DNA of 64,000 nt, taken from Flaccisagitta enflata. Its lineage: Eukaryota. The DNA lies in assembly GCA_965153355.1 (NCBI GenBank), contig OZ231126.1, positions 25,606,001-25,670,000 on the forward strand. The letters are read 5' to 3'. Numbering within the stretch: the first letter of the stretch is position 1; each line of letters opens with the position of its first letter. Below, one piece after another: positions 5,875-50,870 of this stretch. Made by a program: the position numbers and the translations under genes. The notes under the pieces were generated by a model. The model worked only from the letters and a program-made list of their open reading frames with translations. It was not told where the DNA came from and made no database searches.

Positions 5875-6227
5875 CTCCTGACTCGCTGATCTTTTCCTCA
5901 TCAAAGACTTGATAGCAATAAACGCGAGTGAGTTAATGTCCACCGTTGTGGTCGTACGTCTAAGTAACTTACTGCATACGACATCGCATACACAAGATTT
6001 GACCGTTGATTGGTGAGGCCAATTTTTACTCGCTCACTCATTGGACAACGATCGAGGGGCAAAGAGAGAAAGAAAAAGGGACGGAAGCAATGGCTTCTTG
6101 AATGTCCCACCTGATCATCTCATTGTACCTGTTTTTCCCTCAAAAATGACTTTACCTACGGTGATGAGTCAGACATTTGATTCATTCACATTTATGCCTT
6201 TGAGAAAACACGAACTTACAAACCATC

Positions 6228-7009
6228 ATGGATCATCCCCAATTAGTCAAATCCCATCGTGGAAAACTTCTTCTCGTCGATCAAGATTACACGCTCACTC
6301 TCAACAAACGACAAAATGGAAAATACTATTTTCGGTGTTGTCACAAAAAGCCTGTTCAATGCCACGCAACTGCAGTTGTCAAAGGCGAGCTGGAACCAGG
6401 AAATTTCGAGGTTCTTTCTCATCGTGTGGAGCGGCATCATCATGAAAAGTTTCCCATTGACATTCTCATCAAAAACTTCAACGATCAGTTCAAAAAAGCT
6501 TGCGTCGAAAATCTTGACGTGTCCGTTCTAAAGGTCTACGAGGATGAGAGAATTCGCTTCACAGCATCATTGTCGCCTGCACAGAAAACTGCTTTTTTGC
6601 AGAAAATTCCCGCGATCAAATCTTCCCTCATGATGGGTTACAGAGCCCGCGCTGCTGAATATCCATCACTTCCCAAAACAATTGAAGACATTGTGATACC
6701 AGAGCGCTTCACAACAACATTAGACGGCGAAAGACTTTATCGTGGTGCGACACCCGATGGTGTGCACCTCTGGATGTCCACGACTGAATGCCACCATGCT
6801 GGCCGGGGGAAAAAAATGTATGGCGACTGCACCTTTTTCTCCGTTCCCGAACTTTTCGCCCAGATGCTAGTATGCAGGACGATCATCAACGACACACCCG
6901 TCACTATCTCCCACTCCCTTTTGCCCAACAAAAAAAAGAAAACTTACAAAAGTGCTTTGACGCAGATCGTCGAAACCTGCGCCAGAGAAGGCGTCACGCT
7001 TATTTTCAC
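6228..7009 (+). pseudogene. MULE transposase exon 1 (FLYWCH domain and first catalytic Asp)
   Basis: FLYWCH-like LVKSHRGKLLLVDQDY...YFRC-x7-C...HHH; MULE motif YGDCTFFSVPELFAQM and LLPNKKKKTY. Donor AC|GTATAC (phase 2) joins in frame to exon 2. Confidence 0.9.
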
Positions 7010-7134
7010 GTATACGCTACAGAATAATCATTGGAATAATTTGATTCATAGTGACTTAAACATATTTATTCTTGTTAGTTGTGTGCACGCGACTCTACAA
7101 CCAGCTGTGTCCATCCATCCGTCCATCAGTCCAT

Positions 7135-7749
7135 CACAGTGGGCCTTAACTGGGTATGAGTTTAAAAAAATCCCCAATGGTATTGACTAGTATGAGTAGG
7201 TACAATTTTTAGTGGAGAATTGATGTAAACCCTTTAAAAAAAATTTCCCTTGAAAATTTTTGCAAAAATCATTAATAATTATCAATTATTGTATATATTT
7301 ACATATAGATCTCAGGGATATATCAGTTTTAAAATTCTGACTCAAGAATCATATACCTGATGAAATTTCCAATCATTTGATAGGTCATACTACATGCTCT
7401 CAGGAAAAAATAAGATTTTCATTTTTTATGCCACCGTTACAAAAAAAGCAATGGTGGCTTAAAACATGAAAATCTTATTTTTTCACGAAAGTATATAGTG
7501 TGTCCTTAATGATTTGAAATGTCATCAGGAATGTGAAACTTGAGTCAGAATTTAAAAACTGATATATCCTTGAGATCTATTAGTCAATATATACAAAAAT
7601 TGATAGTTTTTAACAATTTTTGCAAAAATGTTCGAGGGAATTTTCTTATAAGGGTTTTCATCAATTCCCCACTATAAATCATACCTACTCATACAAGTTA
7701 CTACCAGTGGGGATTTTTTTAAACTCATACCTAGTTAAGGCCCACTGTG
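7135..7749. mobile_element. Foldback MITE with CAC...GTG ends in transposase intron 1
   Basis: CACAGTGGGCCTTAACT ... AGTTAAGGCCCACTGTG, inverted arms over most of its length, CCAT on both flanks. Confidence 0.85.
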
Positions 7750-8430
7750 CCATCCTTCAAACTTTATTGTTTTGGAATTTATAAGTGGTTACACATTTTT
7801 TTGAAAAGAACATCAAGGCTTTGAATGGCCCCAAAATTAAGAACATCTTAAGAAATAACGAATAGTCGCAAAAGCGTTAGATGGTCAGCGGTACCCGTTG
7901 CCCTATGTGAGTATATGTGGGTGTGTGATGGTGAGAGGGGCAGCGGCCCCGAAGGGACCAATGACTTATGCTCAGTAAGTTTTTGAAGATCTATGGTTGA
8001 AAGTGAGCATCAATAATGGGTTTTAGCCTTGAGGTTGGGATTTGGGATTTGAGCCTCGAGGGTGGGATTTGAGCCTTGAGGTTAGGATGTGAGTCTGTGG
8101 CTGGGACTTGAGCCTCGAGGGTGGGATTTAAGCCTCGAAGCTGGGATTTTAGCCTTGAAGCTAGGATTTGAGCCTTGAGGCTGGGATTTGAGCTTCAAGT
8201 TTGGGATTTGAGCCTCAATGCTAGGATTTGATTCTCTAGGCTGGGATTTGAGCTTCTAGGCTAGGATTTGAGCCTCAGTTGGGATGTGAGCCTCGAGGTT
8301 GGGATGTGAGACTTGAGGTTGGGATTTGAGCCTCGAGGCGAGGGGTATAGTAGTAATGTTGGTGGGTAGGGACAGCGCCCTGTATCTGGCCTTATCTGTT
8401 GTACATTTTATTACAATGATTATGCTATAG

Positions 8431-8909
8431 CGAGGTGCACACCGATTGTGAAGTTGGACTGTACACGGCGTTCAAGGAGGTGTTCCCCGGTATCAAGGTT
8501 CGCCTCTGTTACTTTCATATAACAAAGGCGATCAAGGACAAGAAGTCAAAGGTCGGCCTTTTCCCACTGGTGAAAGGCAACGCCAGTCTCCGAAGATGGT
8601 TGGCTCAAGCCCAAACCATTTTTTGGTTTCCGCCCGCGCTCATTCCGAGAATATGGCAATTGATGTGGTCCTTCGTTGACGACGAAATGCGGAACAACAA
8701 TCTCGTGCTCCGGATTAAATCGTATCTTGAACAAATTTGGATTCATACCTCTTTCCCAATCATGCCTGGTTTGCCCAAGTACGATCCCATGAAAACCAAC
8801 ATGTGGGACGTCAGGGAACTCACAAACACCAACAACTTCTCCAAAACAAACATGTTTCGCTACAAACAACGTTTCGGTTGCAGTCCCAACATCTTCAAAT
8901 TTGCTTCAA
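8431..8909 (+). pseudogene. MULE transposase exon 2, copy 1 (catalytic Glu changed to Lys)
   Basis: Acceptor TATAG|C and donor A|GTAAGT. Encodes HTDCE...VFPGIKVRLCYFH (second Asp and CxxH) and TNNFSKT, where copy 2 has TNNFSET. Confidence 0.9.
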
Positions 8910-8957
8910 GTAAGTGAACATAATGGGTTTATTGAAAATTAAAAATTACTGTGTAAA

Positions 8958-9117
8958 TGATAACAATAACAACAACAATAACAACAATATCTACAACAAC
9001 AACAACAACAACAACAACAACAGCGATAACAACAACAACAACAACAACAACAACAGCAATAACAACAACAACAACAACTATAACAACAACAACACCAACA
9101 ACAACAACAACAACGAT

Positions 9118-9201
<84 letters not shown>

Positions 9202-9487
9202 AACGATAACAACAACAACAACGATAACAACAACGATAACAACAACAACAACGATAACAACAACGATAACAACAACGACAACAACAACGATAACAACAAC
9301 AACGATAACAACAACGACAACAACAACAACAACGATAACAACAACAACAACGATAACAACAACAACAACGATAACAACAACAACAACGATAACAACAACA
9401 ACAACGATAACAACAACAACAACGATAACAACAACAACAACGACAACAACAACAACAACAACAACAACGACAACAACGACAACAACG

Positions 9488-9523
<36 letters not shown>
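8958..9523 (+). repeat. (AAC/GAC/GAT)n compound microsatellite in transposase intron 2 (shorter allele at 40182-40566)
   Basis: Seen directly; starts about 50 bp after the exon 2 donor. Confidence 0.95.
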
Positions 9524-9524
<1 letters not shown>

Positions 9525-10120
9525 GCGCCATATAGTCACATAATCAAATAAAGACATAGTTACGGTAAGGAATTGACCCTTATCGAGACAAAAAATGTAT
9601 GTCAGTAATATTTTAGACCGACTGATGGGCCAAATGATAGACCAATAAAGGGTGGTCCAATAAAGTATTTTTTTACCTCATAACTTGAATAACACTTTTT
9701 TTAGTTTATATTGTTTTTCTAAACAAAAGAGGTTTTCTTATTTTTTCATTTGCTGAAAATTGTTTTTAATTTACAACAAATCAAATATTTGTAGTTCAAT
9801 CTAAACACCATTGAAAGTTCCAAAGGCTCTCATGCTTTGGTATCTTCCACATAGTTTTTTATCAAAATTTAATGATTTTTAGTCACGTGCACGCGACTCT
9901 ACAACCCGCTTTGTCCATTGGTTGGTCGGTCGGTTGGTCACACTTTACTTTTTTTATGATTTTATTACTTTGACCTCCTTGCTCCTGCCCAAATGGTCAG
10001 GTGACCTCAAATATGGCCCCTGCCCACCCGCACGCGACTTAGGTAGCCGTGTATCCGGCCTTGTTGATAGTTGTATCATCATAGAATATTCAAAACAAAA
10101 ATAAATTCTAGTTTGGTTAC

Positions 10121-10317
10121 TTTTTTTAGTCGCGTGCACGCGACTCTACAACCCGCTTTGTCCGTCGGTCGGTCGGTCGGTCGGTTGGTCACACTTTACT
10201 TTTTTTTATGATTTTATTTCTTTGACCTCACTGCTCCTGCCAACATGGTCTGGTGACCTCAAATATGGCCCCTGCCCACCCGCACGCGACTTCGGTAGCC
10301 GTGTATCCGGCCTTGTT
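10121..10317 (+). mobile_element. HINE/DINE-1-like repeat family A, representative copy (others at ~705, 2043, 9877, 25074, 40917, 55836, 59796, 59960 on +; ~11510-11690, 20745, 22476, 54332 on -)
   Basis: T-run, palindrome AGTCGCGTGCACGCGACT, (GTCG/GTCC)n, 3' CACGCGACT, hairpin GCCG-TGTATC-CGGC, then CTTGTT. Absent at the homologous T-run in copy 2 (~41158-41175). Confidence 0.75.
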
Positions 10318-10454
10318 TTTGCCACCCGTCACCAAGAAGAGATGTGTGCACATGACTTAAATGGAAGCACGGCTATCCCAATGATGTGTGGGTGGGCAGG
10401 GCCTGAATTGAAGGTCACTAGCGCATATTGGCAGAAGCAGTGAGATCCAAGAAT

Positions 10455-11050
10455 AAAACAAGGCCGGATACACGGGCCAAGACGGTGCGCCGGGCGTTAT
10501 TAATTCCTAGACCTATTTCTAGTTCTATCTGACCTATCCCTAGCTCTATTAGACCTATCCCGAGCTCTATCAGACCTATCCCGAGCTCTATCAGACCTAT
10601 TCCGAGCTCTATCAGACCTATCCCGAGCTCTATTAGACCTATCCCAAGCTCTATTAGACCTATCCCGAGCTCTATCAGACCTATCCCAGGCACTATAAGA
10701 CCTATCCCGAGCTCTATCAGACCAATTCCGAGCTCTATCAGATCTATCCCGAGCTCTATTTGACCTATCCGACCTATCAATAGCTCAATCAGACCTATCC
10801 CCTGCTCTATCAGACCTATACCCAGACTTATCCGACCTATCACCAGTTTTATCAGACATATCCCCACCTTGATCAGACCTAATTGTAGCTGATTATTTTA
10901 GTGAATGAAGTGACGAGTATCATCAATGATGAACGAAATGAGTTTTCAATTGATTTCAAATATTTTTAGAAATATTTCATTTGATCGTGACCGACAGATG
11001 GACGGACAAACAGACAGAGCCTCTTATAGAAGTGCTATGGCGCACCAAAA
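10455..11050 (-). repeat. Interspersed repeat with a 21-bp tandem core (AGACCTATCCCGAGCTCTATC); inverted relative at 16240-16857; both are also in copy 2
   Basis: 21-bp periodicity produces the (LGIGLIE)n pseudo-ORF; ends in CCGTGTATCCGGCCTTGT like family A. Confidence 0.8.
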
Positions 11051-11919
11051 AATCATCGACGCATATTTCTGAATCATTTCCAGTGATTTTTGCTTTTTAA
11101 TTGCGGACACGCAACTCTATAAGAGGCTTTGTCCGTCCGTCCGTCCGTCCGTCCGTCCGTCCGTCGGGTGGTCCGTCACGCTCGAGTTGAAAACGCGAGA
11201 AACGCGCATTTTACGATGCTGCAGCTGTCATAGAATGTGTGTGGGTGTATGTTAGTGTGTGGGAAGGGGGTTTGGGCGAGGCTGGGGGTTGGCTGCCCCT
11301 GCCCACCCGTCCGCAACGATATTGTGACCCCCGCGTCACTTGTTTTTCGAGAATTTCAACTCGAGCGTTACGTGACGTGACGGACAGAGCCTCTTATAGA
11401 GGTGCTGTGGCGCACCTAAAAAGACATAGCAAAATATGACTGACCAATGGACGTACAAACTGGAATGTAGATTTGCGTAGCACGCAACTGAAAATAGAAC
11501 AAGGCCAGATAGACTGCTACCCCAATCGCGTGCGGGTGGGAAGGGGTAGTATTTGAGTTACTGGATCATTTGGGCAGGAGTAGTGAAACCAAAGGTCGCA
11601 AAAACATAACGTAAAATGGGGACTGACCTACCGACCGACCAACGGACGGACATAGCGGGAGTAGAGTCGCGTAGCACGCAACTAAAAAAAACATTGTCTC
11701 CCAAAAACAACAAATCTGATTGCAACGGAACTCCGTCTAAAACAAATTAACGGATACACGGATACACGGATACACGGCTACCGAAGTCGGGTGCGGGTGG
11801 GCAGGGGCCATATTTGAGGTCACTTGACCATTTGGGCAGGAGCAGTGAGGTCCAAAAATTAAAATCATTAAAAAAGTAAAGTGTGACCAACCGACCAACC
11901 AATGGACAAAGCGGGGTAC

Positions 11920-12563
11920 TAGTCCAGTCTGTTGATGCATGAAATTGAGCAAACTCGGCTTTTCCGGAACAAAGCTTGAAAATTTGCATACAAGTATTTA
12001 AAGTTATGTAGATCATAATAATGATAGGTGCAGGTCAAAAAAATTTGAGCACCTGTCCTAAAAATTCATCTAAAATTTTCAAAACCATGCCACCGCCAAA
12101 CCGTCGGCCTCAGGGCAATAAAATTTCATAAGCAAAAAAAAATGTGTTTTATATATGTGCATAGCAAATTTCAGCTCTGTTGCTCTATTACAAGCAGAGA
12201 TATAGCTAATGTACTTTTGGGTGTATTGTTCTCAAAAATACCCGTTTCAAAAAAAAAATGCAGTTTTTATATACAAAAGTAAATTGGCTATATCTCTGCT
12301 TCTAATCAAGTTAGAGAGCTGAAATTTGTTGTGCATATGTACAAAATACATATTCTTTAGCTCATAAAATTTCATTGCCCTCCCTCAAGCGGTTTGGCGA
12401 TGGCATGATTTTAAAAATTTTAAACGATTTTTAAAGATTGGTGCTCAAATATTTTTGACCTGCACCTATCATTATCATGATCTATATGACTTTAAATACT
12501 TGTATGCAAATTTTCAAGCTTTGTTCCAGAAAAGCCAAGTCCTTTCTTCAACAACCTGGACTA
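11920..12563. mobile_element. Foldback MITE inserted in a HINE-like repeat (also present in copy 2, ~45959-46583)
   Basis: TAGTCCAG ... CTGGACTA with long inverted arms; TAC duplicated on the flanks. Confidence 0.8.
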
Positions 12564-12935
12564 TACAGAGTCGCGTGCACGCGACTAAAAATATTGCATG
12601 TTTGTCGTTTTTTATACGGGCCATCATAGATAAATGTGCTCCCTACTATGGGCCCAAAAAGTCATATTCTTACATGGCATACTTCGTAAAAGTTGTAGCA
12701 AATTTAGTTTTTAATGATGTTTATCTATCGATTTCATGTATAATATGGATATTTTAGCGGGAATAAATGGAAATGTTATCCACGGCAACAGAATATGATG
12801 GGAAATAAAACACTTTATGTATCATTTGTATTCCTAACATGCTTCCCCAACTAATTGAAGTCCAGACAGCATCTACTATTTATATAGCACTTACTGGTTT
12901 GGGTTTCTGTACTGAATTAAACTGCTGTACAATAG

Positions 12936-13402
12936 CCTCCGAAAGATGGGAAAATGGTCTTAGCAACGTTTCAAGCTGCTGCAAATGCGTGGACAATATC
13001 AAAGATATTTGTCTCAAGTGCTTACAGATGCTCATCGACCGACATCTGCCCATATGCGATCGTATCCAAGCTGGGGACGTCCACAGTCGCCGACATGATG
13101 ACTTCCACAATGGTATCCAAACTCGGAATGGCCTCAACCGACAGTGCTACTCAGTTCGTGTCTTTTCTGATGAGCAGCATGATTTGGCCCTGGAAACGCT
13201 CAAGAGACGTTTTTGTCCAAATCGAAGTGTCAAGAAATTAAGATACATTTTAAGCGTCTTGATCGAGGAAGTCTTGATTAGGATTTTTGCGGAGTTCCTG
13301 TCAATTGATTTCATAGAGGCAGAGAAGAAAATGCGGCCTCCTCCGGTTGACCACGAGGAATTAAGAAAGGCAGCTGAGAAACTTCAACAAATGTCTCCGT
13401 AA
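12936..13402 (+). CDS. Putative terminal exon 4 of the element, resembling the PWWP3A/MUM1 C-terminal domain (copy 1)
   Basis: Open frame within ORF 12839-13402, acceptor AATAG|CC. Pattern IQAGDVHSRRHDDF...FSDEQHDLALETL...LRYILSVLIEEVLIRIF...IDFIEAEKKM. Intact in both copies. Confidence 0.6.
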
Positions 13403-14125
13403 ATCGAATTTGGAATTCATTGTCAATAAGTGCATCAAAGAGGGCATCATGCGGATTGGCATGAAATGCTTGGAAACGATCATGCTTTGGGAAAAAAAAT
13501 ACTGCCTGTTTTTACTTGAATTATGCTACCAGCAGATTCCAGTTCACAATTCTCTTTACATCTAGGATGCAACTTTTTTGCTATTTATTACATGCTGCGT
13601 GTTATGATGAACATCTTTGCAATGATCCTACACAGGATTTTCATATTTCTGACTCAAAATCTTCATCTTTTTAATTCATCACGTATAAGCATTCTCGCTG
13701 ATTGATATGCTTTTGAAAAAAGAAGTTTGACTGGTATCAATGATCAATGTAATATTGTTCAAGCTGTTTACAGTTGTTTGCTTTTAGTTAGAAATCACAT
13801 TCTTGGCTGCTTCACATTGGCATCCTTTCCCTCGGTTAACGACTTTGCTGGTGAATGAACAATAACTTTGGCCACTTACTCTGTTGATTAACCAGCTCCT
13901 GTATAATCTAAAGTGTTTTGCTTTTTTTTAATCGAATTAAGCACTTCCTACATTTCATTACTGATCCCCTTTTGATCTAAAATTGGTTTTCGCGTGCTTT
14001 ATCATCACCATTGTTAGAAAAAAAAAAAACATTGTCATACGTCATTAATTTCTATCATGCCTATATACAATGCTTCTCTTAATATACATCTTGGTCGTGT
14101 AAAAACATTGGGTGGTTTTATTGAA

Positions 14126-14898
14126 CACGGCGTCCAGGAACAAACTCTAGGTCTAAAAAAATGGTCAAGATTCTTGACCTGGGGAAATGTCTTTTTTGAT
14201 GCATTAGCTACAAATTAATGGTAAAAATAAAAAAATCTGCTTATAAATATAGAATTGATGGTCAAATAATAGCCAAAAGAGGCATTTTTAAGCATATTTT
14301 AGATTAAAAATTGTATTCATGGCTTCTAAAATTATGTAAAAATGTATGAAAAGTTTGGCTACAGTTGTTGCACTGATGCTTTTACCTACTTTAGTTTGTC
14401 TAAAATGATTTTCAATAATCAAAACAAAAAAACACCAAAAACTGCTGTAAAATGACTATTTTTGATTATTTTTTGCTATTTCTAAGCTCTAATCTTTCAA
14501 ATATCTTTTAAAACTAGCTGGATTATATTCCAGCATGTGTATCTCAACAACATTTTTACATTTTTCATAGTCTTCAAAAATTCTAAAGAAGTAATTATGA
14601 ATTATCTATAAAATAACCCTCTAAACTTACTCAATAGGTAAAAGCATTATTACAGCAACTATTACCACACTTTTCAGATATTTTTTAAACCGCTTGAAGC
14701 TATAATCTTAATTTCTGATATAAAAAATATTTAAGAGTGCTTTGTTTTGGCTATCTTTAAGCTTTGAATTTGATATTTCCATACCAACTTTTTTAATTTT
14801 TGCCATAGATAGATAGCTAATGCATCAAAAAAAAACTTTTTCTCAGGTCAGGAGTCTTGACCATTTTTTCGACCTATGGTTTGTTCCTGGACGCCGTG
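14126..14898. mobile_element. MITE with CACGG ends and 4-bp TSD, Chapaev/CMC-like (copy 2 counterpart 48399-49221)
   Basis: TGAA-CACGGCGTCCAGGAACAAA ... TTTGTTCCTGGACGCCGTG-TGAA. Confidence 0.88.
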
Positions 14899-15099
14899 TG
14901 AAGCATTGAAATAACAATCGTTTGAATGGATTTGGCTAGCTTTACAGTGAGATGCTTTTAAGCAGATACCTGTAGACAAAGTGGGATTTGGTGCTTTTGG
15001 GGGGGGGGTTACGAAGGAGGAGAAGGAGAAGGAGAAGATTCCCCATATGTGTGAAAGCATAGGTCAGCGACCTCTGCGGGGCCACTGCCCAAAAAACAA

Positions 15100-15175
<76 letters not shown>

Positions 15176-15252
15176 GAACTGGATGCAGAAATATGTTTTT
15201 AGTCGCTGGCTAAGCGACTCTTTAAGAGGCTGTGTCCGTAGGTATGTAGGTA

Positions 15253-15865
15253 TGACGCACTGAAATTAAAGTAAGAGGAATTTACCCAGAGGACAAAGTT
15301 ACCATTCACTTTACTATTTTTGCTTAGGTCAATGCTTGTGTTTATTTTTTTGTACCTAAATGTGTAAACTTACATGTGGAAATCAATCTGTCACTGTCAA
15401 ATGACAAAAATGCGAAAAGATTGAAAGAAATTCGATTCTGATGAGACTAAAAAAAGAAAAAAATGGCGACAATCATTTTAGTAACTGCTCACTGAAAATT
15501 TTAAATTTGCATAAAAGATCCAAATATCATTGAAATAAGAACATAGCGCCCTCAGTTTATGTTTTAGGAATCGCGCTATGTTCTTGTTTTGTTGATATTT
15601 TGATTTTCTATGCAAATTTAAAATTTTCAATGAGCCATGGTCCATTGACAAGATAATTTTTTTACTGAATTTCGCATGTTTTTTCCGCTGTAAAATAAAG
15701 GATTGGAATTTAAAACTGGCATATGCGAGTCAATTCATGCAAAATATGGTTTTTGACAGTTTAATTGAAAACATAAAAACAAAAATTGTCATTAAATTTC
15801 ATCTTATAAATTTCATGACTTATCTAGCTCGGGTAGCAAATTCTATGATAATTTTCAGTGCGTCG
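15253..15865. mobile_element. TA-targeting MITE specific to copy 1
   Basis: TA-TGACGCACTGAAA ... TTTCAGTGCGTCG-TA; empty site GTAGGTATGTTGG at 49574-49586. Confidence 0.9.
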
Positions 15866-16987
15866 TATGTTGGTAACGCGAACTTTTGGCTGACGCGAAA
15901 TCGACTGAAATAGTGATATCTGAGCATTACGGCCCCTGCCCCGCCACATAACAGCCCCCAACGACTACTTATTGGCCGTGTATCCGGCCTCATTTTTTTT
16001 CACTTTTGGCCGAATAGAAAATGGTACATGGCAAATGGCACATGGATGTCTACAAGCACATACCTTTTGTTACTTGGTAAAAGCAGACCCCAAATTCTCA
16101 CTGCGTTAGGCAGAGCCAGAAAGAAAAAAAGAAAGGCCGAGTGTAGGCCAATACATGCGTCTTGCTTTCGAAGAACAGATGAACGAATCAGTGAAGGAAT
16201 TAAGGTATAAAAAAAGGTACAACAGCTTGTTTTGCGTTTTTAGGTGCGCCATAGCACCACTATAAGAGGCTCTATGTGCTGGTTGGTTGGTAGGTCAGTC
16301 GGTCACGCTCGAGTTGAAAATCTCTAGAAGAAGAAAAAATCACTGGAAATGATTTGGAAATATGCCAGGATGATTTTAAGATGCGCCATAGCACCTCCAT
16401 AAGAGGCTCTGTCCGTCCGTCCATCCATCGGTCACGCTCGATTGAAAAATTGCTAAAAAAGTTTAAAATAAATTGAAAACTTATTTCGTTCATCACTGAT
16501 CACTGACGATACTCATCATTCTGTTCACTAAAATAATCAGCTACGGTTAGGTCGGATAGAGCTGGGGATAGGTCGGATAGGTCTGGTGATAGGTCGGATA
16601 GGTCTGGGGATAGGTCTGATAGAGCTGGGGGTAGGTCTGATAGAGCTGGTGATAGGTCTGAAAGAGCTCGGGATAGGTCTGATAGAGCTCAATATAGGTC
16701 TGATAGAGCTTGGTAAAGGCCTGATAGAGCTCAGGATAGGTGTGACAGAGCTAGGAAAAGGTCTGATAGAGCTAGTGATAGGTCTGATGGAGCTAGGGAT
16801 AGGTCTAAGAATTAATGACACCCAGCACACCGTCTTGGCCCGTGTATCCGGCCTTGTCTGTTTCAAAAGCCTGGCCGACAGACTAACAGACAAACAGAGC
16901 AACTGGCATGACCTCTTGAAGACATGCGTAGACGCGTATAAAAACGCTCTGAATGCTTTAGTGCAAGGACGTAAAGGAGAACAACAT

Positions 16988-17096
<109 letters not shown>

Positions 17097-17110
17097 GAGA
17101 CAGAGAGAGA

Positions 17111-17156
<46 letters not shown>

Positions 17157-17509
17157 GAGAGAGAGAAGAAAGAAAGGAAGAAAGAAAATCAAAATGAGAA
17201 TGCAATCAAGGCAAAAAGTTATTTTTTCTCCCTTTTTTCTCCCTTATTACTTTTTTTCACAATCCACTTGAGGCCGATCGCCAATGAGGAACCTTTTTTT
17301 CCATTCCACTTCAGGCCGAATCATGAAATGAGGGCAGTGAGCTTCCAATCCACTCAAGGCCGATTCGGCCTTGAGTGTTTGAGCTACTAACTCTAGTACG
17401 AAATTCGGACTTTAGATACCTCCTCAGAGAGGTTGACCTCTCATATAGTATTGAATGAGGGGTTTAACTCACCAGGGGATAACAGATATCGTTGAGTTAC
17501 AACGAACTA

Positions 17510-37401: not shown

Positions 37402-37437
37402 ACTTCGTCCTAAGCAAAAAAGGATAAACAAACCAAT

Positions 37438-39312
<1,875 letters not shown>

Positions 39313-39654
39313 GTGAGTCTGTGGCTGGGACTTGAGCCTCGAGGGTGGGATTTAAGCCTCGAAGCTGGGATTTTAGCCTTGAAGCTAGGATTTGAGCCTT
39401 GAGGCTGGGATTTGAGCTTCAAGTTTGGGATTTGAGCCTCAATGCTAGGATTTAATTCTCTAGGCTGGGATTTGAGCTTTTAGGCTAGGATTTGAGCCTC
39501 AGTTGGGATGTGAGCCTCGAGGTTGGGATGTGAGACTTGAGGTTGGGATTTGAGCCTCGAGGCGAGGGGTATAGTAGTAATGTTGGTGGGTAGGGACAGC
39601 GCCCTGTATCTGGCCTTATTTGTTGTACATTTTATTACAATGATTATGCTATAG

Positions 39655-40133
39655 CGAGGTGCACACCGATTGTGAAGTTGGACTGTACACGGCGTTCGAG
39701 GAGGTGTTCCCCGGTATCAAGGTTCGCCTCTGTTACTTTCATATAACAAAGGCGATCAAGGACAAGAAGTCAAAGGTCGGCCTTATCCCACTGGTGAAAG
39801 GCAACGTCAGTCTCCGAAGATGGTTGGCTCAAGCCCAAACCATTTTTCGGTTTCCACCCGCGCTCATTCCGAGAATATGGCAATTGATGTGGTCCTTCGT
39901 TGACGACGAAATGCGGAACAACAATCTCGTGCTCCGGATTAAATCGTATCTTGAACAAATTTGGATTCATACCTCTTTCCCAATCATGCCTGGTCTGCCC
40001 AAGTACGATCCCATGAAAACCAACATGTGGGACGTCAGGGAACTCACAAACACCAACAACTTCTCCGAAACAAACATGTTTCGCTACAAACAACGTTTCG
40101 GTTGCAGTCCCAACATCTTCAAATTTGCTTCAA
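39655..40133 (+). pseudogene. MULE transposase exon 2, copy 2 (catalytic Glu intact)
   Basis: Same splice sites as copy 1; HTDCE, CYFH, TNTNNFSET and PNIFKF motifs. Confidence 0.9.
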
Positions 40134-40313
40134 GTAAGTGAACATAATGGGTTTATTGAAAATTAAAAATTACTGTGTAAATGATAACAATAACAACAAC
40201 AATAACAACAACAATAACAACAATATCTACAACAACAACAACAACGACAACGACGACGACAACGACAACAACAACAATAACAACGACAACAACGATAACA
40301 ACGACAACAACAA

Positions 40314-40344
<31 letters not shown>

Positions 40345-40476
40345 AACAACAACAACAACAACGATAGCAATATCAACAACAACAACGATAACAACAACAA
40401 CGATAACAACAACAACGATAACAACAACAACGATAACAACAACAACGATAACAACAACGATAACAACAACAACGAT

Positions 40477-40565
<89 letters not shown>

Positions 40566-43033
40566 CCGCCATATAGTCACATAATCAAATAAAGACATAG
40601 TTACGGTAAGGAATTGACCCTTATGGTGACAAAAAATGTATGTCAGTTATATTTTAGACCGACTGATGGGCCAAATGATAGACCAATAAAGGGTGGTCCA
40701 ATAAAGTATTTTTTTACCTCATAACTTGAATAACAATTTTTTTAGTTTATATCGTTTTTCTAAACAAAATAGGTTTTCTTATTTTTTCATTTGCTGAAAA
40801 TTGTTTATAATTTACAACAAATCAAATATTTATAGTTCAATCTAAACACCATTGAAAGTTCCAAAGGCTCTCGTGCTTTGGTATCTTCCACATAGTTTTT
40901 TATCAAAATTTAATGATTTTTAGTCACGTGCACGCGACTCTACAACCCGCTTTGTCCATCGGTTAGTCGGTCGGTTGGTCACACTTTACTTTTTTTATGA
41001 TTTTATTACTTTGACCTCCCTGCTCCTGCCCAAATGGTCAGGTGACCTCAAATATGGCCCCTGCCCACCCGCACGCGACTTAGGTAGCCGTGTATCCGGC
41101 CTTGTTAATAGTTGTATCATCATAGAATATTCAAAACAAAAATAAATTCTAGTTTGGTTTTTTTTTTTTTTTTTTGCCACCCGTCACCAAGAAGAGATGT
41201 GTGCACATGACTTAAATGGAAGCACGGCTATCCCAATGATGTGTGGGTGGGCAGGGGCTGAATTGAAGGTCACTAGCGCATTTTGGCAGAAGCAGTGAGA
41301 TCCAAGAATAAAACAAGGCCGGATACACGGGCCAAGACGGTGCGCCGGGCGTTATTAATTCCTAGACCTATTTCTAGCTCTATCTGACCTACCCCTAGCT
41401 CTATTAGACCTATCCTGAGCTCTATCAGACCTATCCCGAGCTCTATCACACCTATTCCGAGCTCTATCAGACCTATCCCGAGCTCTATTAGACCTATCCC
41501 AAGCCCTATTAGACCTATCCCGAGCTCTATCAGACCTATCCCAGGCACTATAAGACCTATCCCGAGCTCTATCAGACCAATCCCGAGCTCTATCAGATCT
41601 ATCCCGAGCTCTATTTGACCTATCCGACCTATCAATAGCTCAATCAGACCTATCCCCTGCTTTATCAGACCTATACCCAGACTTATTCGACCTATCACCA
41701 GTTTTATCAGACATATCCCCACCTTGATCAGACCTAATTGTAGCTGATTATTTTAGTGAATGAAGTGACGAGTATCATCAATGATGAACGTAATGAGTTT
41801 TCAATTGATTTCAAATATTTTTTGAAATATTTCATCTGATCGTCACCGACAGATGGACGGACAAACAGACAGAGCCTCTTATAGAAGTGCTATGGCGCAC
41901 CAAAAAATCATCGACGCATATTTCTGAATCATTTCCAGTGATTTTTGCTTTTTAATTGCGGACACGCAACTCTATAAGAGGTTTTGTCCGTCCGTCCGTC
42001 CGTCCGTCCGTCCGTCGGCTGGTCCGTCACGCTAGAGTTGAAAACGCGAGAAACGCGCATTTTACGATGCTGCAGCTGTCATAGAATGTGTGTGGGTGTA
42101 TGTTAGTGTGTGGGAAGGGGGTTTTGGCGAGGCTGGGGGTTGGCTGCCCCTGCCCACCTTCCGCAACGATATTGTGACCCCCGCGTCACTTGTTTTCCGA
42201 GAATTTCAACTCTAGCGTTACGTGACGTGACGGACAGAGCCTCTTATAGAGGTGCTGTGGCGCACCTAAAAAGACATAAAAGCAAAATATGACTGACCAA
42301 CGGACGTACAAACTGGAATGAAGATTTGCATAGCACGCAACTGAAAATAGAACAAGGCCAGATAGACTGCTACCCCAATTGCGTGCGGGTGGGAAGGGGC
42401 AGTATTTGAGTTACTGGATCATTTGGGCAGGAGTAGTGAAACCAAAGGTCGCAACAACATAACGTAAAATGGGGACTGACCTATCGACCGACCAACGGAC
42501 GGACATAGCGGGAGTAGAGTCGCGTAGCACGCAACTAAAAAAAACATTGTCTCCCAAAAACAACAAATCTGACTGCAACGGAACTCCGCCTAAAACAAAT
42601 TAACGGTCTCTTTAACGATTTTTTTTCATCTTTCATGTAACAGAAGCGTACAAAATCTATGTTTTCCCACAACGCAATAAAACAGTATATTATAAGTTTT
42701 AACACCAAAACTGTTCAATCATTAAAGCAGCCCCAAAAGGGGACGAAGTCCTGTAGACTGACGGACGGACCGACGGACTGACGGACTGACAAAGCAGAGT
42801 GTAGAATCGCGTAGCACGCCACTAAAAAAAGTGTATGTGTGTGGGTTTGGGGGCATTGGGTTTGGATGGGGTTGAATGCCCCTGCCCACCCATCCGCAAC
42901 AATGTTGTGATCCCGGGTCACTCATTATCTTTGCTCCTGCTCAAATGCTCAAACATACTTTTGAGGTCAGCTTATGACAAATATAACTCTAGATAAATAT
43001 TATGATCTTATCCATCTTGTGCTTTCTTTCCAG

Positions 43034-43487
43034 AGGTTCAGCGTGAGGTTGAGCTGATTCACCAGCGGCTGGTAACGATCGACGACCATCCAAAAGTTCC
43101 CAACCCTCGAACCGCTGAACTTTTTGCGAGTCGCCATCGTTGGAAAATGGAGCTTCAAACGGCGATTGAAAGAGGTGGTGTGACGGATGACGCTCTTATG
43201 CAAGCGATGGATGAAATCCTTTGAATGAATCGCGCCGCTCGTCATGCTAAGAAATCATGTCAACAAGGCAACGTGGCACGTCCAGAGCAAGCTAACGCCA
43301 ATGAGGATGAACACGCTGAAGGGACGAGCGAGCAATCCGACGGAGTGTTGATGGACGAGCAGATGGAGGAAGCGATGGACGACGTAGACGAGACTATTGA
43401 TGATCTGATGGACGATTCGATTGACGAGCTTATGGATGATGCGATTGACGAACTTATGGATGAATCCATTGATGAGCTCGAAGTTCT

Positions 43488-43580
<93 letters not shown>

Positions 43581-43964
43581 CGCTGATCAGATAGACTCGA
43601 CATCGACAACGGAACATTCCGTGGCTGCAACTGTTTCCTGCGTCGAACAACAAGACCATGATGGTGAAATGGCGCAACAAACTAACAATGCGCGGGTTGC
43701 TGCGATCGAGGAAGATGAAGAGGAGGAGGATGAAGATGAGGAAGAACTACGGGAGCGTGAAAAACAACTACAACAACAGAAGCAAAAGCGGCAAAAAAGA
43801 CTTCGACGACGGCAAGAACAGCAACAAATGCTGCCCCAACAACAACGACAGCAACGTCAGCGGAAAAATCAACCCAAGTCTTCTCAGCAACAGCAAATTC
43901 AGCCAGACTGTACGGGACAACCGGATGAAAATCAAGAATCCACCCCGCAAAGCAGTGATACGCC

Positions 43965-44054
<90 letters not shown>

Positions 44055-44221
44055 GCGTTGGGGTAAACCAAGACGCGTTCCCACAGCCTCAGCAACCACG
44101 ACGCCGCTCATTACGGAAATGGAGACTATCTCTCAATTGACGTCTTTAAACGCGGAGCTTCCACTTCCGGCTTCCTCACCTCCGCCTCATGTGGGGGCCG
44201 CAATGGCGTCTACGTCTCAAG

Positions 44222-44313
<92 letters not shown>

Positions 44314-44554
44314 AAACAAAAACAACAACAAAAACAACAACAACAGCACCAAAAACAGCCACAGGGAAAGCAACAAAAACAAATGAAACGTTCCTCTAAG
44401 ACAAAAAAAAAATCAAATTTTCTTTGTGAAACTTGTTCGAACACTTATGCGAACTCCTTCAATCTGATGCGCCATCAGAAACAAATTCATAACAGTGCTG
44501 ATCAACACGACCCATTGTCGTCCAAAACGCATGAGGATCTTCTTAAAAATCATG
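43034..44554 (+). pseudogene. MULE transposase exon 3 (C-terminal helix, acidic repeats, poly-Q tracts, one C2H2 finger), with in-frame TGA at 43222-43224
   Basis: Acceptor CTTTCTTTCCAG|AG in phase 1 gives PNIFKFASKVQREVEL across the junction. Same frame as ORF 43225-44571; finger FLCETCSNTYANSFNLMRHQKQIH. The 3' end is either the weak donor G|GTTTTT at 44555 or the stop at 44571. Confidence 0.8.
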
Positions 44555-44597
44555 GTTTTTCAATATTATAGTATAGCTCAGTACAGAAAACCTAAAC

Positions 44598-44724
44598 TGT
44601 GTTTGTGTGTGTGTACAGAAAACCTAAACTGTGTTTGTGTGTGTGTATATGTGTGTGTGTGTTTTTGTGTGTGTGAAATGACTGATAAGTGCATATGATT
44701 CATGAGCTCTAGGGTTACATTCCG

Positions 44725-44768
<44 letters not shown>

Positions 44769-44815
44769 GACTTGATAGTGCATACGATTCATGAATTTTA
44801 GGTTACATTCCGAAA

Positions 44816-44892
<77 letters not shown>

Positions 44893-44935
44893 GACTGATA
44901 AGTGCATACGATTCATGACTTATAGGTTTACATTC

Positions 44936-44981
<46 letters not shown>

Positions 44982-45050
44982 TGTGGGTGTGTTTGTGTGG
45001 GTGTGTTTGTGTGGGTGTGTTTGTGTTTGTTTGTGCGTGTCTGTGCTTTG
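44598..45050 (+). repeat. Tandem units of (GT)n + AAATGACTGATAAGTGCATACGATTCATGA
   Basis: Spacer recurs at ~44676, 44765 and 44888 between (GT)n tracts. Confidence 0.8.
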
Positions 45051-45316
45051 GTGTTAATCAGAGCATGTACATTATTTTGTAGATGACTTAATTTTGTGGA
45101 CTAAAGACTAAACATATAGTATTAGTAATCAGTAATGTGATTCCGTCCAGACTCGAGATTGGCCCTATGGCCTAGGGAATATATATTGGAAACAAACCAA
45201 ACCTCGGAACAAATATTTCAAATACAGATTAATCAAAAGGTTCTTGACTATGATCAGTTACACATTTCAAAAACACATTTCCATGTATTCCAACAAAAAT
45301 ATCAATATCTTGAATA

Positions 45317-45730
45317 CAGACGAAAGTGAATTACAAGAAGTTAACCCCCAAAAACTGTAGCACCCCCCCTGACAGCGTCAACTATTAAATGATTAATGGT
45401 ATATCAAATAAGGAATGGCAGCTTATATAGATCCAATTAGCCTCATCTCAGTGATTTTGGAATTTCATTCCCAGTCAAGAGTTATAGCTAAAAAACTAGC
45501 TTATAATAATATCTTTTAAACTCTTGCTAGAATTGCAATTTGTTGTTTGTTTTTTTCTAGTAATAACTTTAGATAGGGAATGAAATTCCAAATTTGCTCT
45601 GAGGCAAATTGTAGTGATATAAGCTTCCATTCAATATATACTTTTTTTTTCATTCAGCGATTGAGGCTGTAGGGGGGGGGGGGCGCTACAGTTTTTGGGG
45701 AGTTAACTTCTTGTATTTCACTTTTGTCTG
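45317..45730. mobile_element. TA-targeting MITE in putative intron 3
   Basis: TA-CAGACGAAAGTGAATTACAAGAAGTTAAC ... GTTAACTTCTTGTATTTCACTTTTGTCTG-TA. Confidence 0.85.
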
Positions 45731-46744
45731 TAGATGATGAACAAGCGTATTGCCCAAAATTGAAAGATAGTTCTGATGCACCCTGATTATGTCCTGTATC
45801 ACGGCCGGATACAAGGCTACCAAAGTCGGGTGCGGGTGGGCAGGGGCCATATTTGAGGTCACTTGACCATTTGGGCAGGAGCAGTGAGGTCCAAAAATTA
45901 AAATCATTAAAAAAGTAAAGTGTGACCAACCGACCGACCAATGGACAAAGCGGGGTACTAGTCCAGTCTTTTGATGCATGAAATTGAGAACTCGGCTTTT
46001 CCGAAAGAGTTTGAAAATTTGCACGTCATATTTAAAGTTATAGATCATAACAGGTGCAGGTCGTATTTGAGCACCTGTCCTAAAAATTCATCTAAAATTT
46101 TCAAAACCATGCCACCGCCAAACCGTCTGCCTCAGGGCAATAAAATTTTATGAGCAAAAAAAAATGTGTTTTATATATGTGCATAGCAAATTTCAGCTCT
46201 GTTGCTTTATTACAAGCAGAGATATAGCCAATGTACTTTTAGGTGTATTGTTCTCAAAAATTCCCGTTTAAAAAAAAAATGCAGTTTTATATACAAAAGT
46301 AAATCGGCTATATCTCTGCTTCTAATCAAGCTAGAGAGCTGAAATTTGTTGTGCATATGTACAAAATACATATTCTTTAGCTCATAAAATTTCATTGCCC
46401 TCCCTCAAGCGGTTTGGCGATGGCATGATTTTAAAAATTTTAAACGATTTTTAAAGATAGGTGCTCAAATATTTTTGACCTGCACCTATCATTATCATGA
46501 TCTATATGACTTTAAATACTTGTATGCAAATTTTCAAGCTTTGTTCCAGAAAAGCCGAGTCCTTTCTCCAACAACCTGGACTATACAGAGTCGCGTGCAC
46601 GCAACTAAAAATATTGCATGTTTGTCGTTTTTTATACGGGCCATCATAGATAAATGTGCTCCCTACTATGGGCCCAAAAAGTCATATTCCTACATAGCAT
46701 ACTTCGTAAAAGTTGTAGCAAATTTAGTTTTTAATGATGTTTAT

Positions 46745-47040
46745 TAGGGTGGTCCCGAATTGGGTCAAATTTCATATATTGATATACTTGAGCCCTTTAC
46801 ACAAATATCCAATAAAAGAAGGATTTCTCACAAGCTGGGGTGTGAAATCAAACAAGAAACCTTGTCGGCAAAACTACAGGGTTGCTATGGGGATTTTTTT
46901 ATTGCCATAGGAAGCCTATAGTTTTGCCGCCACGGTTTAATCTTCAAGTACAGACCTCTACTTATGGGAAAACCTTCTTTTTTGGTACCTTTAGGCAAAA
47001 AACTAGAGTATATCATTTTTTGAAATTTGACCCTATTTCG
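46745..47040. mobile_element. Copy-2-specific MITE with right end deleted
   Basis: TAGGGTGGTCCCGAATTGGGTCAAATTTCA ... TGAAATTTGACCCTATTTCG; replaces the 30 bp seen at 12725-12754 in copy 1. Confidence 0.75.

Positions 47041-49421: not shown

Positions 49422-49506
<85 letters not shown>

Positions 49507-50702: not shown

Positions 50703-50870
<168 letters not shown>

What the first reader, a model, noticed from the sequence alone, without database searches (positions are those of the whole stretch)
12936..13402. Transposon carries a PWWP3A/MUM1 C-terminal-domain-like ORF
Seen: an intact ORF in both copies with only 2 nucleotide differences noticed. Its pattern (I-x-x-G-x-x-x-S-x-R...F; FSDEQHDLALETL; LRYILSVLIEEVLIRIF...IDFIEAEKKM..PP) resembles, from my recollection of the family, the helical C-terminal domain of PWWP3A/MUM1 (EXPAND1), a chromatin and DNA-damage factor. 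It is preceded by a Cys cluster (CCKC...CLKC). Inference: the domain may be captured cargo used for chromatin targeting or anti-silencing, or the host domain may itself be transposon-related.
Basis: partly seen in the sequence, partly recalled or inferred. Interest (0 to 1): 0.75.

Follow-up and report, generated by a model that had tools for sequence, protein, structure and literature searches.

The report
PWWP3A-like domain exon in duplicated DNA
The open reading frame really does encode a helical domain related to the C-terminal domain of the DNA-repair factor PWWP3A, but it looks like the last exon of an ordinary zinc-finger gene in a duplicated, repeat-filled stretch, not transposon cargo.

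Summary
Observation confirmed. A 197-codon stop-to-stop frame (12809-13402, +) recurs intact at 47095-47688.

Domain reading supported. The peptide alone is sub-threshold on Pfam PF20886 PWP3A-B_C (E 0.021, 15.2 bits against a cut-off of 27). But it has 73 relatives, and 15 of 41 scanned also hit PF20886. It aligns directly (BLASTP 1e-10; hhalign 96-99.9%) to proteins that pass Pfam's threshold. AlphaFold2 gives a confident all-helical domain (pLDDT 93-98) with no solved look-alike.

Transposon-cargo reading not supported.
- The two copies are a colinear 9-12 kb duplication (8089-17425 and 39313-51157) that shares nested repeats.
- Its left edge lies inside a repeat that had already broken the MULE transposase.
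- There are no terminal inverted repeats or target-site duplications.
- The ORF island is low-copy, whereas its flanks are hugely repetitive.
- No relative scanned carries a transposase domain.

Copy 2 holds an upstream 448-codon ORF ending in a C2H2 finger like the one fused to the domain in relative P0011. This suggests a two-exon gene, with copy 1 having lost exon 1. No RNA evidence was obtained.

Verdict: a new, divergent member of a known but functionally uncharacterised domain family, of modest interest.

The parts
12809..13402 (+). Stop-to-stop ORF, copy 1 (197 codons plus stop). The first ATG is at 12839.
12936..13402 (+). Proposed terminal exon, copy 1. It follows an AG acceptor at 12934-12935, and homology to relatives starts at 12938. 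It encodes the Cys cluster and the helical PWP3A-B_C/RTC4-like domain.
12977..13021 (+). Cys cluster CC-x-C-x7-C-x2-C (C57, C58, C60, C68, C71). C57, C58, C68 and C71 are invariant in all 8 sequences of the close-subfamily alignment.
12971..13399 (+). Confidently predicted all-helical domain (residues about 55-197, pLDDT 93-98).
47095..47688 (+). The same ORF in copy 2. The proposed exon 2 is 47222-47688.
43225..44571 (+). A 448-codon ORF found only in copy 2, with acidic and poly-Q stretches. It is the candidate exon 1. An in-frame donor candidate is ATG|GTTTTT after 44554.
44419..44505 (+). Single C2H2-type finger at the end of the candidate exon 1. It resembles the finger that precedes the domain in relative P0011.
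8089..17425 (.). Duplicated block, copy 1.
39313..51157 (.). Duplicated block, copy 2. It is colinear with copy 1 at 92.5-97.4% identity per aligned piece, with several indels.
42607..45805 (.). A 3.2 kb segment absent from copy 1 (junction at 11753/11767). There is ACGG/CGG microhomology and a triplicated 8-mer at the junction. It reads as a deletion in copy 1 that removed exon 1.
6204..7190 (+). Remnant of the N-terminal part of a FLYWCH-finger MULE transposase. It lies outside the duplication.
8420..8917 (+). Remnant of the C-terminal part of the MULE transposase (copy 2: 39644-40141). It is separated from the N-terminal part by a foldback (7135-7749) and a 20-bp tandem repeat (about 7853-8338).
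10458..11095 (.). Left arm of a 640-bp inverted-repeat pair with internal 21-bp tandem repeats. It belongs to an abundant repeat family.
16331..16857 (.). Right arm of the inverted pair, 81-84% identical to the left arm. No target-site duplication spans the pair.
12684..14003 (.). Low-copy island holding the ORF. Summed k-mer depth is about 180-690 in 9 of the 10 bins (the edge bin 12684-12815, next to the upstream repeat, reads 1557 in X1 and 604 in X2). In the flanking bins it is about 7e3 to 4e6.

Best explanation
The ORF is most likely the terminal coding exon of a cellular-type gene.

**The protein.** It would have an acidic, poly-Q N-terminal region, a single C2H2 finger, a short Cys/His cluster, and a C-terminal all-helical domain of about 130 residues. 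That domain is a divergent member of the PWP3A-B_C (PF20886) / RTC4-like (PF14474) group.

**The locus.** The gene lies in a repeat-saturated region of a marine invertebrate genome. The region was duplicated as a 9-12 kb segment.
- Copy 2 keeps both exons: 43225 to about 44554, and 47222-47688.
- Copy 1 lost exon 1 and the promoter in a 3.2 kb deletion, leaving 12936-13402 as an orphaned but still open exon.

**The MULE.** The neighbouring FLYWCH-MULE transposase is a decayed relic that was already interrupted before the duplication. It neither carries nor moves the gene.

**Function (inferred, not shown).** By analogy with where the domain sits in relatives, always at the C-terminal end of long and otherwise domain-poor proteins, it probably acts as a protein-interaction or assembly module of a nuclear factor. 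The conserved Cys/His cluster may bind zinc.
For: **Domain homology**
- 73 relatives at E <= 0.001, with the matched stretch at or near the C-terminus in nearly all of them.
- 15 of 41 hit PF20886 and 13 of 41 hit RTC4.
- P0100 and P0101 pass PF20886's cut-off.
- The ORF against P0101 gives BLASTP 1e-10. hhalign gives 99.9% and 96.1%.
- The AlphaFold2 model has pLDDT 93-98 for residues 55-197.

**Cellular-gene character**
- Named relatives are 'uncharacterized' genes of Patella, Solemya, Owenia, Amphiura, Patiria, Tubulanus, Potamilus, Branchiostoma, Saccostrea and Mizuhopecten, some with isoforms.
- None of the 91 relatives scanned has a transposase domain (72, 19).

**Two-exon model**
- Relative P0011 has a C2H2 finger followed by the domain in one ORF.
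- Its finger matches window 44419-44505 (tblastn E 7.9e-4). That is better than its match to the window's own poly-ZNF gene (E 0.61). Pairwise BLASTP gives 1e-6.
- In-frame donor/acceptor pairs exist.
- Homology to P0003 begins at 12938, just after the AG.

**Duplication rather than transposition**
- The blocks are colinear and share SINE-like repeats and microsatellites.
- The left edge (8089) lies inside the 20-bp tandem repeat that splits the transposase. Neither edge has a TIR or TSD.
- Exon 1 is present only in copy 2, and the junction shows microhomology.
- The ORF island is low-copy while the flanks are extremely repetitive.
Against: - **No transcript evidence.** The splice junction is inferred, and the best in-frame donor (ATG|GTTTTT) is weak.
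- **No Pfam finger call.** Pfam did not call a C2H2 finger in the 448-aa ORF at E <= 0.01.
- **Unexpected conservation.** If copy 1 were a dead orphan exon, its ORF should diverge like its flanks. Yet the ORF has 3 substitutions in 594 nt against 15 in 601 nt in the adjacent low-copy 3' flank (Fisher p = 0.007). That hints at constraint or gene conversion in both copies. The MULE-fragment control (7 in 498 nt) does not differ significantly from the ORF (p = 0.2).
- **Unusual residues.** The window protein departs from family-wide consensus at some positions, for example LRY where relatives have LDY.
- **Copy number unknown.** No whole genome was available to count copies.
- **Possible artefact.** An assembly artefact, such as two haplotypes placed in tandem, is not excluded. 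The differing flanks argue against it.
Confidence: 0.6

Rival explanations
1. The gene is cargo or an accessory gene of a DNA transposon. The element would be either the adjacent FLYWCH-MULE or a 6.4-9.2 kb non-autonomous element bounded by the 640-bp inverted arms (10458-11095 and 16331-16857). The two copies would then be two transposition products.
For: - A MULE transposase remnant lies upstream on the same strand in both copies.
- Long inverted arms flank the ORF in both copies.
- ENA/Logan data hold at least two further near-identical protein variants, P0002 and P0075.
- The majority variant in the runs of organism A differs from both window copies, so more than two copies or alleles exist.
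Against: - The edges of homology have no TIR or TSD. The left edge sits inside a repeat that interrupts the transposase, and copy 2 lacks the N-terminal two thirds of the transposase.
- The arms share an 18-nt terminus that occurs 13 times exactly in this 64 kb window, so it belongs to an abundant family. The composite has no TSD.
- The ORF island's k-mer depth is 2-4 orders of magnitude below that of the arm-adjacent and flanking repeats.
- No other transposon protein turned up among the 78 ORFs of 70 aa or more scanned in and around both copies.
- No relative carries a transposase domain.
Confidence: 0.12
2. The ORF is a self-contained single-exon gene of 187 codons starting at the ATG at 12839. 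It is functional in both copies and unrelated to the upstream 448-codon ORF of copy 2.
For: - Relatives of 137-211 aa exist (P0003, P0004, P0006, P0007).
- The ORF diverges less than the neighbouring low-copy sequence in both copies.
- The 33 residues upstream of the proposed acceptor are unchanged in P0002 and P0075 except at position 21.
Against: - Residues 1-41 are mostly predicted with pLDDT below 50 and have no counterpart in any relative.
- Homology starts exactly after an AG acceptor.
- The short relatives come from contigs of about 0.7-1.5 kb and may be fragments: P0078, in the same 90% cluster as P0003, extends upstream and begins with the tail of a finger.
- P0011 shows the finger-plus-domain architecture.
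Confidence: 0.2
3. Both copies are decaying relics (pseudogene fragments), and their intactness only reflects how young the duplication is.
For: - At about 3% divergence, an open 197-codon frame is expected to survive by chance.
- The 2 nonsynonymous to 1 synonymous ratio is compatible with neutrality.
- Several family-consensus residues are altered.
- No read of the one RNA run fell on the ORF (only about 6% of that run was read).
Against: - The ORF has 5-fold fewer substitutions than its flanks (p = 0.001 against the whole block; p = 0.007 against the low-copy 3' flank).
- Both long ORFs are intact in copy 2.
- AlphaFold2 gives very high confidence for this particular sequence.
Confidence: 0.2

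Closest known systems
Pfam PF20886, PWP3A-B_C (C-terminal domain of PWWP3A/MUM1/EXPAND1 and PWWP3B)
   Same: It is a C-terminal helical domain of about 130 residues. Its matches to the profile are colinear (positions 9-134 of 141 in relatives; 80-131 for the ORF itself). Relatives P0100 and P0101 pass Pfam's own threshold, and the ORF aligns to them directly.
   Different: - The ORF itself scores 15.2 bits against a cut-off of 27.
- No PWWP domain was found in the candidate exon 1 or in any relative scanned.
- The close subfamily has an extra CC...C..C cluster and, in at least one relative and probably here, a C2H2 finger.
- No vertebrate PWWP3A sequence could be obtained for a direct comparison (retrieved none).
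- The function of this domain in PWWP3A is not described in the passages I read. Those cover 53BP1-BRCT-dependent recruitment (PMC9162042, passages) and a PWWP-domain deletion (PMC12045991, passages).
Pfam PF14474, RTC4-like domain (yeast Rtc4, restriction of telomere capping 4)
   Same: 13 of 41 family members give sub-threshold hits (best E 0.0012). The hits fall on the C-terminal half of the domain (profile positions 75-112 of 121). In P0107 this overlaps the part matched by PF20886.
   Different: No member reached the cut-off, and the ORF itself gave no RTC4 hit. RTC4 proteins are fungal. A rust-fungus paper reports expansions of 15-45 copies (PMC9370660, passages). Whether Pfam groups the two families together was not checked.
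Pack-MULE / gene-capturing Mutator-like elements
   Same: A MULE transposase remnant and a host-like gene fragment lie within a few kb of each other, and both are duplicated.
   Different: No TIRs or TSD bound the unit, the transposase was already disrupted, and the copy number is low. The definition of Pack-MULEs used here is from general knowledge, not from a call.

Membership tests
PF20886 PWP3A-B_C | hmmscan score at or above Pfam's gathering cut-off (27 bits) | tested here: not met
   The ORF scores 15.2 bits, E 0.021, over residues 132-183 against profile positions 80-131.
PF20886 PWP3A-B_C | Significant homology to sequences that do pass the cut-off | tested here: met
   P0100 scores 28.9 bits and P0101 28.5 bits. 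The ORF against P0101 gives BLASTP 1e-10. A1 against P0100 gives hhalign 99.9%, E 9.6e-32. A3 against P0101 gives 96.1%, E 3.1e-9.
PF20886 PWP3A-B_C | Domain sits at the C-terminal end of the protein | tested here: met
   The matched stretch lies at or near the C-terminus in nearly all of the 73 relatives. The ORF ends 14 residues after the domain.
PWWP3A/B orthologue (whole protein) | A PWWP domain in the same protein | tested here: not met
   Pfam found no PWWP hit in the candidate exon 1 (P0087) or in any of the 91 relatives scanned.
PF20886 PWP3A-B_C | Same fold as the PWWP3A C-terminal domain | not testable with these tools
PF14474 RTC4-like | hmmscan match to the RTC4 profile | tested here: inconclusive
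   13 of 41 relatives hit below the cut-off, best E 0.0012. The ORF itself has no hit.
MULE-borne cargo (Pack-MULE-like) | Unit bounded by terminal inverted repeats | tested here: not met
   The edges of the shared block (8089/17425 and 39313/51157) show no inverted similarity. The 640-bp arms belong to an abundant family whose 18-nt terminus occurs 13 times in the window.
MULE-borne cargo (Pack-MULE-like) | Target-site duplication flanking the unit | tested here: not met
   The flanks differ at both block edges and at the outer ends of the arms.
MULE-borne cargo (Pack-MULE-like) | Copies explained by transposition: independent sites, each with the complete element | tested here: not met
   The left edge lies inside a tandem repeat that interrupts the transposase ORF. 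Copy 2 lacks the FLYWCH/N-terminal part. Nested repeats are shared at identical positions.
Segmental duplication | Colinear blocks that include unrelated nested repeats, arbitrary break points, and later indels | tested here: met
   Seven colinear pieces at 92.5-97.4% identity, with copy-specific indels of 50 bp to 3.2 kb.

The most novel reading that the evidence does not exclude
The zinc-finger/PWP3A-like gene is carried by a low-copy, non-autonomous DNA element. The element would be bounded by the 640-bp inverted arms, whose 18-nt termini are shared with an abundant short-repeat family. On this reading a chromatin or DNA-repair-type module has been captured and moved by a transposon in an animal genome, and the PWP3A-B_C/RTC4-like domain would have a mobile-element history.
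Probability: 0.08. Interest if true: 0.6.

Novelty: new member of a known kind. Interest (0 to 1): 0.3.

Why it matters
The work ties an unannotated invertebrate ORF, together with a set of 'uncharacterized' proteins from molluscs, annelids, nemerteans, echinoderms and amphioxus, to the C-terminal domain of PWWP3A/B and, more weakly, to the fungal RTC4-like domain.

The domain is attached to different N-terminal parts in different lineages:
- a C2H2 finger here and in P0011;
- an SLX4IP-like UPF0492 region in a brittle-star protein (27.8 bits against a cut-off of 27) and, below cut-off (24.7 bits), in a second, unnamed protein;
- weak dsRBD-like hits in others.

The confidently predicted fold has no solved counterpart.

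This is a useful annotation and a modest lead for anyone studying what the PWWP3A C-terminal domain does. It does not show a transposon carrying a chromatin factor, which was the reason for the high first-stage score.

Tried and rejected
- **Whole-genome search.** No genome is held for this window, so copy number could not be counted.
- **Phage collection.** A megablast of the ORF found nothing and was irrelevant.
- **Word-indexed protein searches.** The 'near' search found only one 97%-identical protein. The 'longer' search found none.
- **Search for vertebrate PWWP3A.** A profile search of alignment A2 among longer proteins returned 17 family members. None was named PWWP3A and none had precomputed Pfam domains. 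A direct comparison with vertebrate PWWP3A was therefore not possible.
- **ESM Atlas.** No usable hit for the whole ORF or for residues 50-197.
- **Solved structures.**
  - The PDB sequence-profile search gave 0 hits at E <= 10.
  - Foldseek against the PDB gave no match at E <= 0.001 (best 1.8).
- **RNA evidence.**
  - No RNA holder was listed by the run search.
  - The one poly-A RNA run of the same study (X9) was laid with about 6% of it read. One read landed, none on the ORF.
  - This says nothing either way about expression.
- **Related loci in metagenome contigs.**
  - The single-protein query found no relative.
  - Gene neighbourhoods of relatives could therefore not be inspected.
- **Earlier findings of this scan.** Nothing is on record for this genome.
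- **Literature.**
  - 'RTC4' with 'MUM1': 0 papers.
  - 'RTC4-like': 0 papers.
  - 'PWWP3A', 'C-terminal domain', 'transposon': nothing relevant among the 15 listed.
  - I therefore found no paper linking this domain to transposons or linking PF20886 to RTC4. Subscription journals are not covered.
- **The 640-bp inverted arms as TIRs.** Considered and rejected.
- **A 34-bp inverted match (5535-5568 and 18151-18184) as MULE TIRs.** Considered and rejected. Its right-hand partner (18151-18184) lies inside the tandem-repeat family copy at 18065-18482, and 5493-5573 itself recurs at 15015-15094.

Full report
**1. What is at the coordinates**

The window is eukaryotic. It is SSR-rich, has 33-50% G+C, and holds many SINE-like repeats.

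A stop-to-stop frame of 197 codons runs from 12809 to 13402 on the + strand. It is the first base after an AG dinucleotide. tblastn of relative P0003 begins to align at 12938. The coordinate therefore behaves like an exon start.

A second intact copy lies at 47095-47688. The copies differ by three substitutions:

| Position | Change | Effect |
|---|---|---|
| 12870 | C/A | A21E |
| 13041 | G/A | R78Q |
| 13280 | A/C | synonymous (AGG/CGG) |

**2. Is it a real protein domain?**

Yes.
- An exhaustive phmmer search of 1.84 billion representatives gave 73 proteins at E <= 0.001. Sixteen were at <= 1e-10, and the best non-self hit was at 8.9e-25.
- The matched stretch (query residues about 52-185) lies at or near the C-terminus of nearly all these proteins, which range from 71 to 1545 residues.
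- In a 41-sequence alignment, I86, G89, R95, L109 and F119 are nearly invariant, and the consensus reads I..G...S.RH...L...F..Q...DY.L.VL..E..I.I...EAE.
- In the eight-sequence alignment of the window protein with its seven closest relatives, C57, C58, C68 and C71 are invariant. The 'Cys cluster' is therefore a conserved feature of the subfamily.
- AlphaFold2 run with this alignment gives an all-helical domain with pLDDT 93-98 for residues about 55-197. Residues 1-41 are mostly below 50.

**3. Is it PWWP3A-like?**

- The peptide alone gives one Pfam hit, to PF20886 PWP3A-B_C. The E-value is 0.021 and the score 15.2 bits, below the 27-bit cut-off.
- At family level the signal is consistent. Of 41 members scanned one by one, 15 hit PF20886 (best E 4.6e-5) and 13 hit PF14474 RTC4-like (best E 0.0012). 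No other family recurs more than twice.
- Among further relatives found with a profile, P0100 and P0101 pass PF20886's own threshold at 28.9 and 28.5 bits.
- The window ORF aligns directly to P0101 over the same stretch (residues 59-187 against 598-734) at BLASTP E 1e-10.
- hhalign of the wide alignment against P0100 gives 99.9% (E 9.6e-32). That alignment contains relatives of P0100.
- The more independent test uses only the close subfamily against P0101. It gives 96.1% (E 3.1e-9) over 104 columns.

I conclude that the domain is a divergent member of the PWP3A-B_C group and probably also related to RTC4-like domains.

Three things are not shown:
- No vertebrate PWWP3A sequence could be retrieved for a direct comparison.
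- No PWWP domain occurs in the candidate exon 1 or in any relative scanned.

**4. Context: duplication, not transposition**

Self-comparison shows that 8089-17425 is colinear with 39313-51157. There are seven pieces at 92.5-97.4% identity. The shared block includes an (AAT)n microsatellite, SINE-like repeats, a 21-bp satellite and foldbacks, all in the same order. Copy-specific indels followed:
- 3.2 kb present only in copy 2 (42607-45805);
- about 290 bp present only in copy 2;
- 610 bp present only in copy 1 (15255-15864).

The MULE transposase is a wreck.
- A FLYWCH finger plus the start of the DDE domain sit at 6204-7190 (FLYWCH E 3.7e-8).
- The end of the MULE domain sits at 8420-8917 (E 2e-4, below cut-off).
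- Between them lie a foldback (7135-7749) and a 20-bp tandem repeat.

The left edge of the duplication (8089) lies inside that tandem repeat. Copy 2 begins there, directly after the stop codon of an unrelated ORF with a GDSL/SGNH-like domain (38258-39316). The duplication therefore happened after the transposase had been interrupted, and copy 2 never had the N-terminal two thirds. Neither edge shows inverted termini or a target-site duplication.

The MULE fragment differs between copies at 7 of 498 nt, 5 nonsynonymous and 2 synonymous. That is what a pseudogene would show.

A 640-bp inverted pair (10458-11095 and 16331-16857, 81-84% identical) flanks the ORF in both copies. I rejected it as a pair of TIRs for two reasons:
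- Its 18-nt terminus is shared with the abundant SINE-like family and occurs 13 times exactly in the 64 kb window.
- The outer flanks show no duplication.

Logan contigs of two DNA runs of the same organism give a summed k-mer depth of about 180-690 over the island 12684-14003. The one exception is its upstream edge bin, which reaches 1557 in X1. The neighbouring bins give about 7e3 to 4e6. The ORF therefore sits on a low-copy island among very high-copy repeats. These depths are not copy numbers.

The majority letters in those runs (A at 12870, G at 13041, C at 13280) match neither window copy completely. Two further protein variants exist (P0002 and P0075). More alleles or copies therefore exist.

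A Pfam scan covered 78 ORFs of 70 aa or more in and around both copies. These were 78 of the 81 found by the script. I left out the two copies of the ORF itself and one overlapping out-of-frame ORF. The scan found no other transposon protein.

**5. A probable upstream exon**

The 3.2 kb present only in copy 2 contains a 448-codon ORF (43225-44571). It has acidic and poly-Q stretches and ends in a C2H2-type finger.

Relative P0011 (287 aa) has a similar finger at residues 71-93, followed by the Cys cluster and the domain, all in one ORF.
- The two fingers align at BLASTP E 1e-6.
- tblastn of P0011 against the window hits 44419-44505 at E 7.9e-4.
- The best hit of P0011 to the window's own 520-aa poly-zinc-finger gene (28114-29676) is only E 0.61.
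- P0078, in the same 90% cluster as P0003, begins with what looks like the tail of such a finger.

In-frame donor/acceptor combinations exist. One example is ATG|GTTTTT after 44554 joined to AATAG|CC at 47222, which gives 598 codons. Several alternatives are equally in frame, and none is verified by RNA.

tblastn finds exon 1 only in copy 2. At the copy 1 junction (11753/11767) the flanks share ACGG/CGG microhomology, and an 8-mer is triplicated. I read this as a deletion in copy 1 rather than an insertion in copy 2.

**6. Selection**

| Region | Substitutions | Comparison with the ORF |
|---|---|---|
| ORF | 3 in 594 nt | n/a |
| Rest of the same aligned block | 34 in 1258 nt | Fisher p = 0.001 |
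| Adjacent low-copy 3' flank | 15 in 601 nt | p = 0.007 |
| MULE fragment | 7 in 498 nt | p = 0.2 |

With 2 nonsynonymous changes and 1 synonymous change, over about 466 nonsynonymous and 125 synonymous sites, dN/dS cannot be estimated.

The low divergence is mildly at odds with copy 1 being a dead orphan exon. Gene conversion, residual function, or inflated divergence in the flanks could each explain it.

**7. Relatives and likely role**

Named relatives are 'uncharacterized' or 'hypothetical' proteins of Patella vulgata, Solemya velum, Owenia fusiformis, Amphiura filiformis, Patiria miniata, Tubulanus polymorphus, Potamilus streckersoni, Branchiostoma lanceolatum, Saccostrea echinata and Mizuhopecten yessoensis. 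Several have annotated isoforms, which points to ordinary spliced genes.

The N-terminal parts vary:
- none recognisable in most;
- a C2H2 finger in P0011;
- a UPF0492 (SLX4IP family) region in the Amphiura protein (27.8 bits against a cut-off of 27) and in P0036 (24.7 bits);
- weak dsRBD-like hits in P0092, P0093 and P0102.

The passages I read say that PWWP3A/MUM1/EXPAND1 is recruited to breaks through the 53BP1 BRCT domains (PMC9162042). They also describe a PWWP-domain deletion (PMC12045991). Neither addresses the C-terminal domain. RTC4 is described as a yeast telomere-capping screen hit that is expanded in rust fungi (PMC9370660, passages).

From this I infer, without demonstration, that the domain is a C-terminal interaction or assembly module of nuclear, possibly genome-maintenance, factors. 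The Cys/His cluster of this subfamily may bind zinc.

**8. Verdict**

- The domain assignment is supported as remote homology.
- The transposon-cargo interpretation is not supported.

The finding is a new, divergent member of a known but functionally uncharacterised domain family. It lies in a segmentally duplicated region next to a dead MULE.

Noticed in passing
window 6204-7190 and 8420-8917 (+); copy of the latter at 39644-40141: A decayed FLYWCH-finger MULE transposase. It is split by a foldback element (7135-7749) and a 20-bp tandem repeat (about 7853-8338). Other copies of the tandem-repeat family lie at 4933-5342 and 18065-18482.
   Followed up: partly
window 37414-38601 and 38258-39316 (+): Two overlapping long ORFs just upstream of copy 2. 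The second has a sub-threshold GDSL/SGNH lipase-like match (E 5e-6). It may be the ORF1/esterase of a non-LTR retrotransposon; that interpretation is from recall and was not tested.
   Followed up: no
window 28114-29676 (+): An uninterrupted 520-codon ORF made of many tandem C2H2 zinc fingers. It looks like a single-exon poly-ZNF gene.
   Followed up: no
window 10458-11095, 16331-16857, 41313-41953, 50039-50569; 18-nt terminus at 13 sites across the window: A repeat of about 640 bp with internal 21-bp tandem units. It shares its 18-nt terminus with a much more abundant SINE-like family of about 400 bp. This suggests the two families are mobilised by the same machinery.
   Followed up: partly
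window 59142-59690 (-): A 182-codon ORF that looks like the C-terminal part of a LINE reverse transcriptase (judged by eye). Pfam gave no hit at E <= 0.01.
   Followed up: no
window 52629-53485: A long tandem array with a 12-bp period, about 93% identical between shifted copies.
   Followed up: no
relatives P0069 (Amphiura filiformis, 943 aa) and P0036 (396 aa): The same C-terminal domain is joined to an N-terminal UPF0492/SLX4IP-family region. This links the domain to another genome-maintenance protein family.
   Followed up: partly
window 12750-13550, via coded runs X3-X6: Four runs labelled as marine metagenome hold 17-55% of the sampled words of this stretch. X3, the only one of them laid, covers the ORF at a depth of about 3-5. 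The organism's DNA, or that of a close relative, is therefore present in seawater samples.
   Followed up: no
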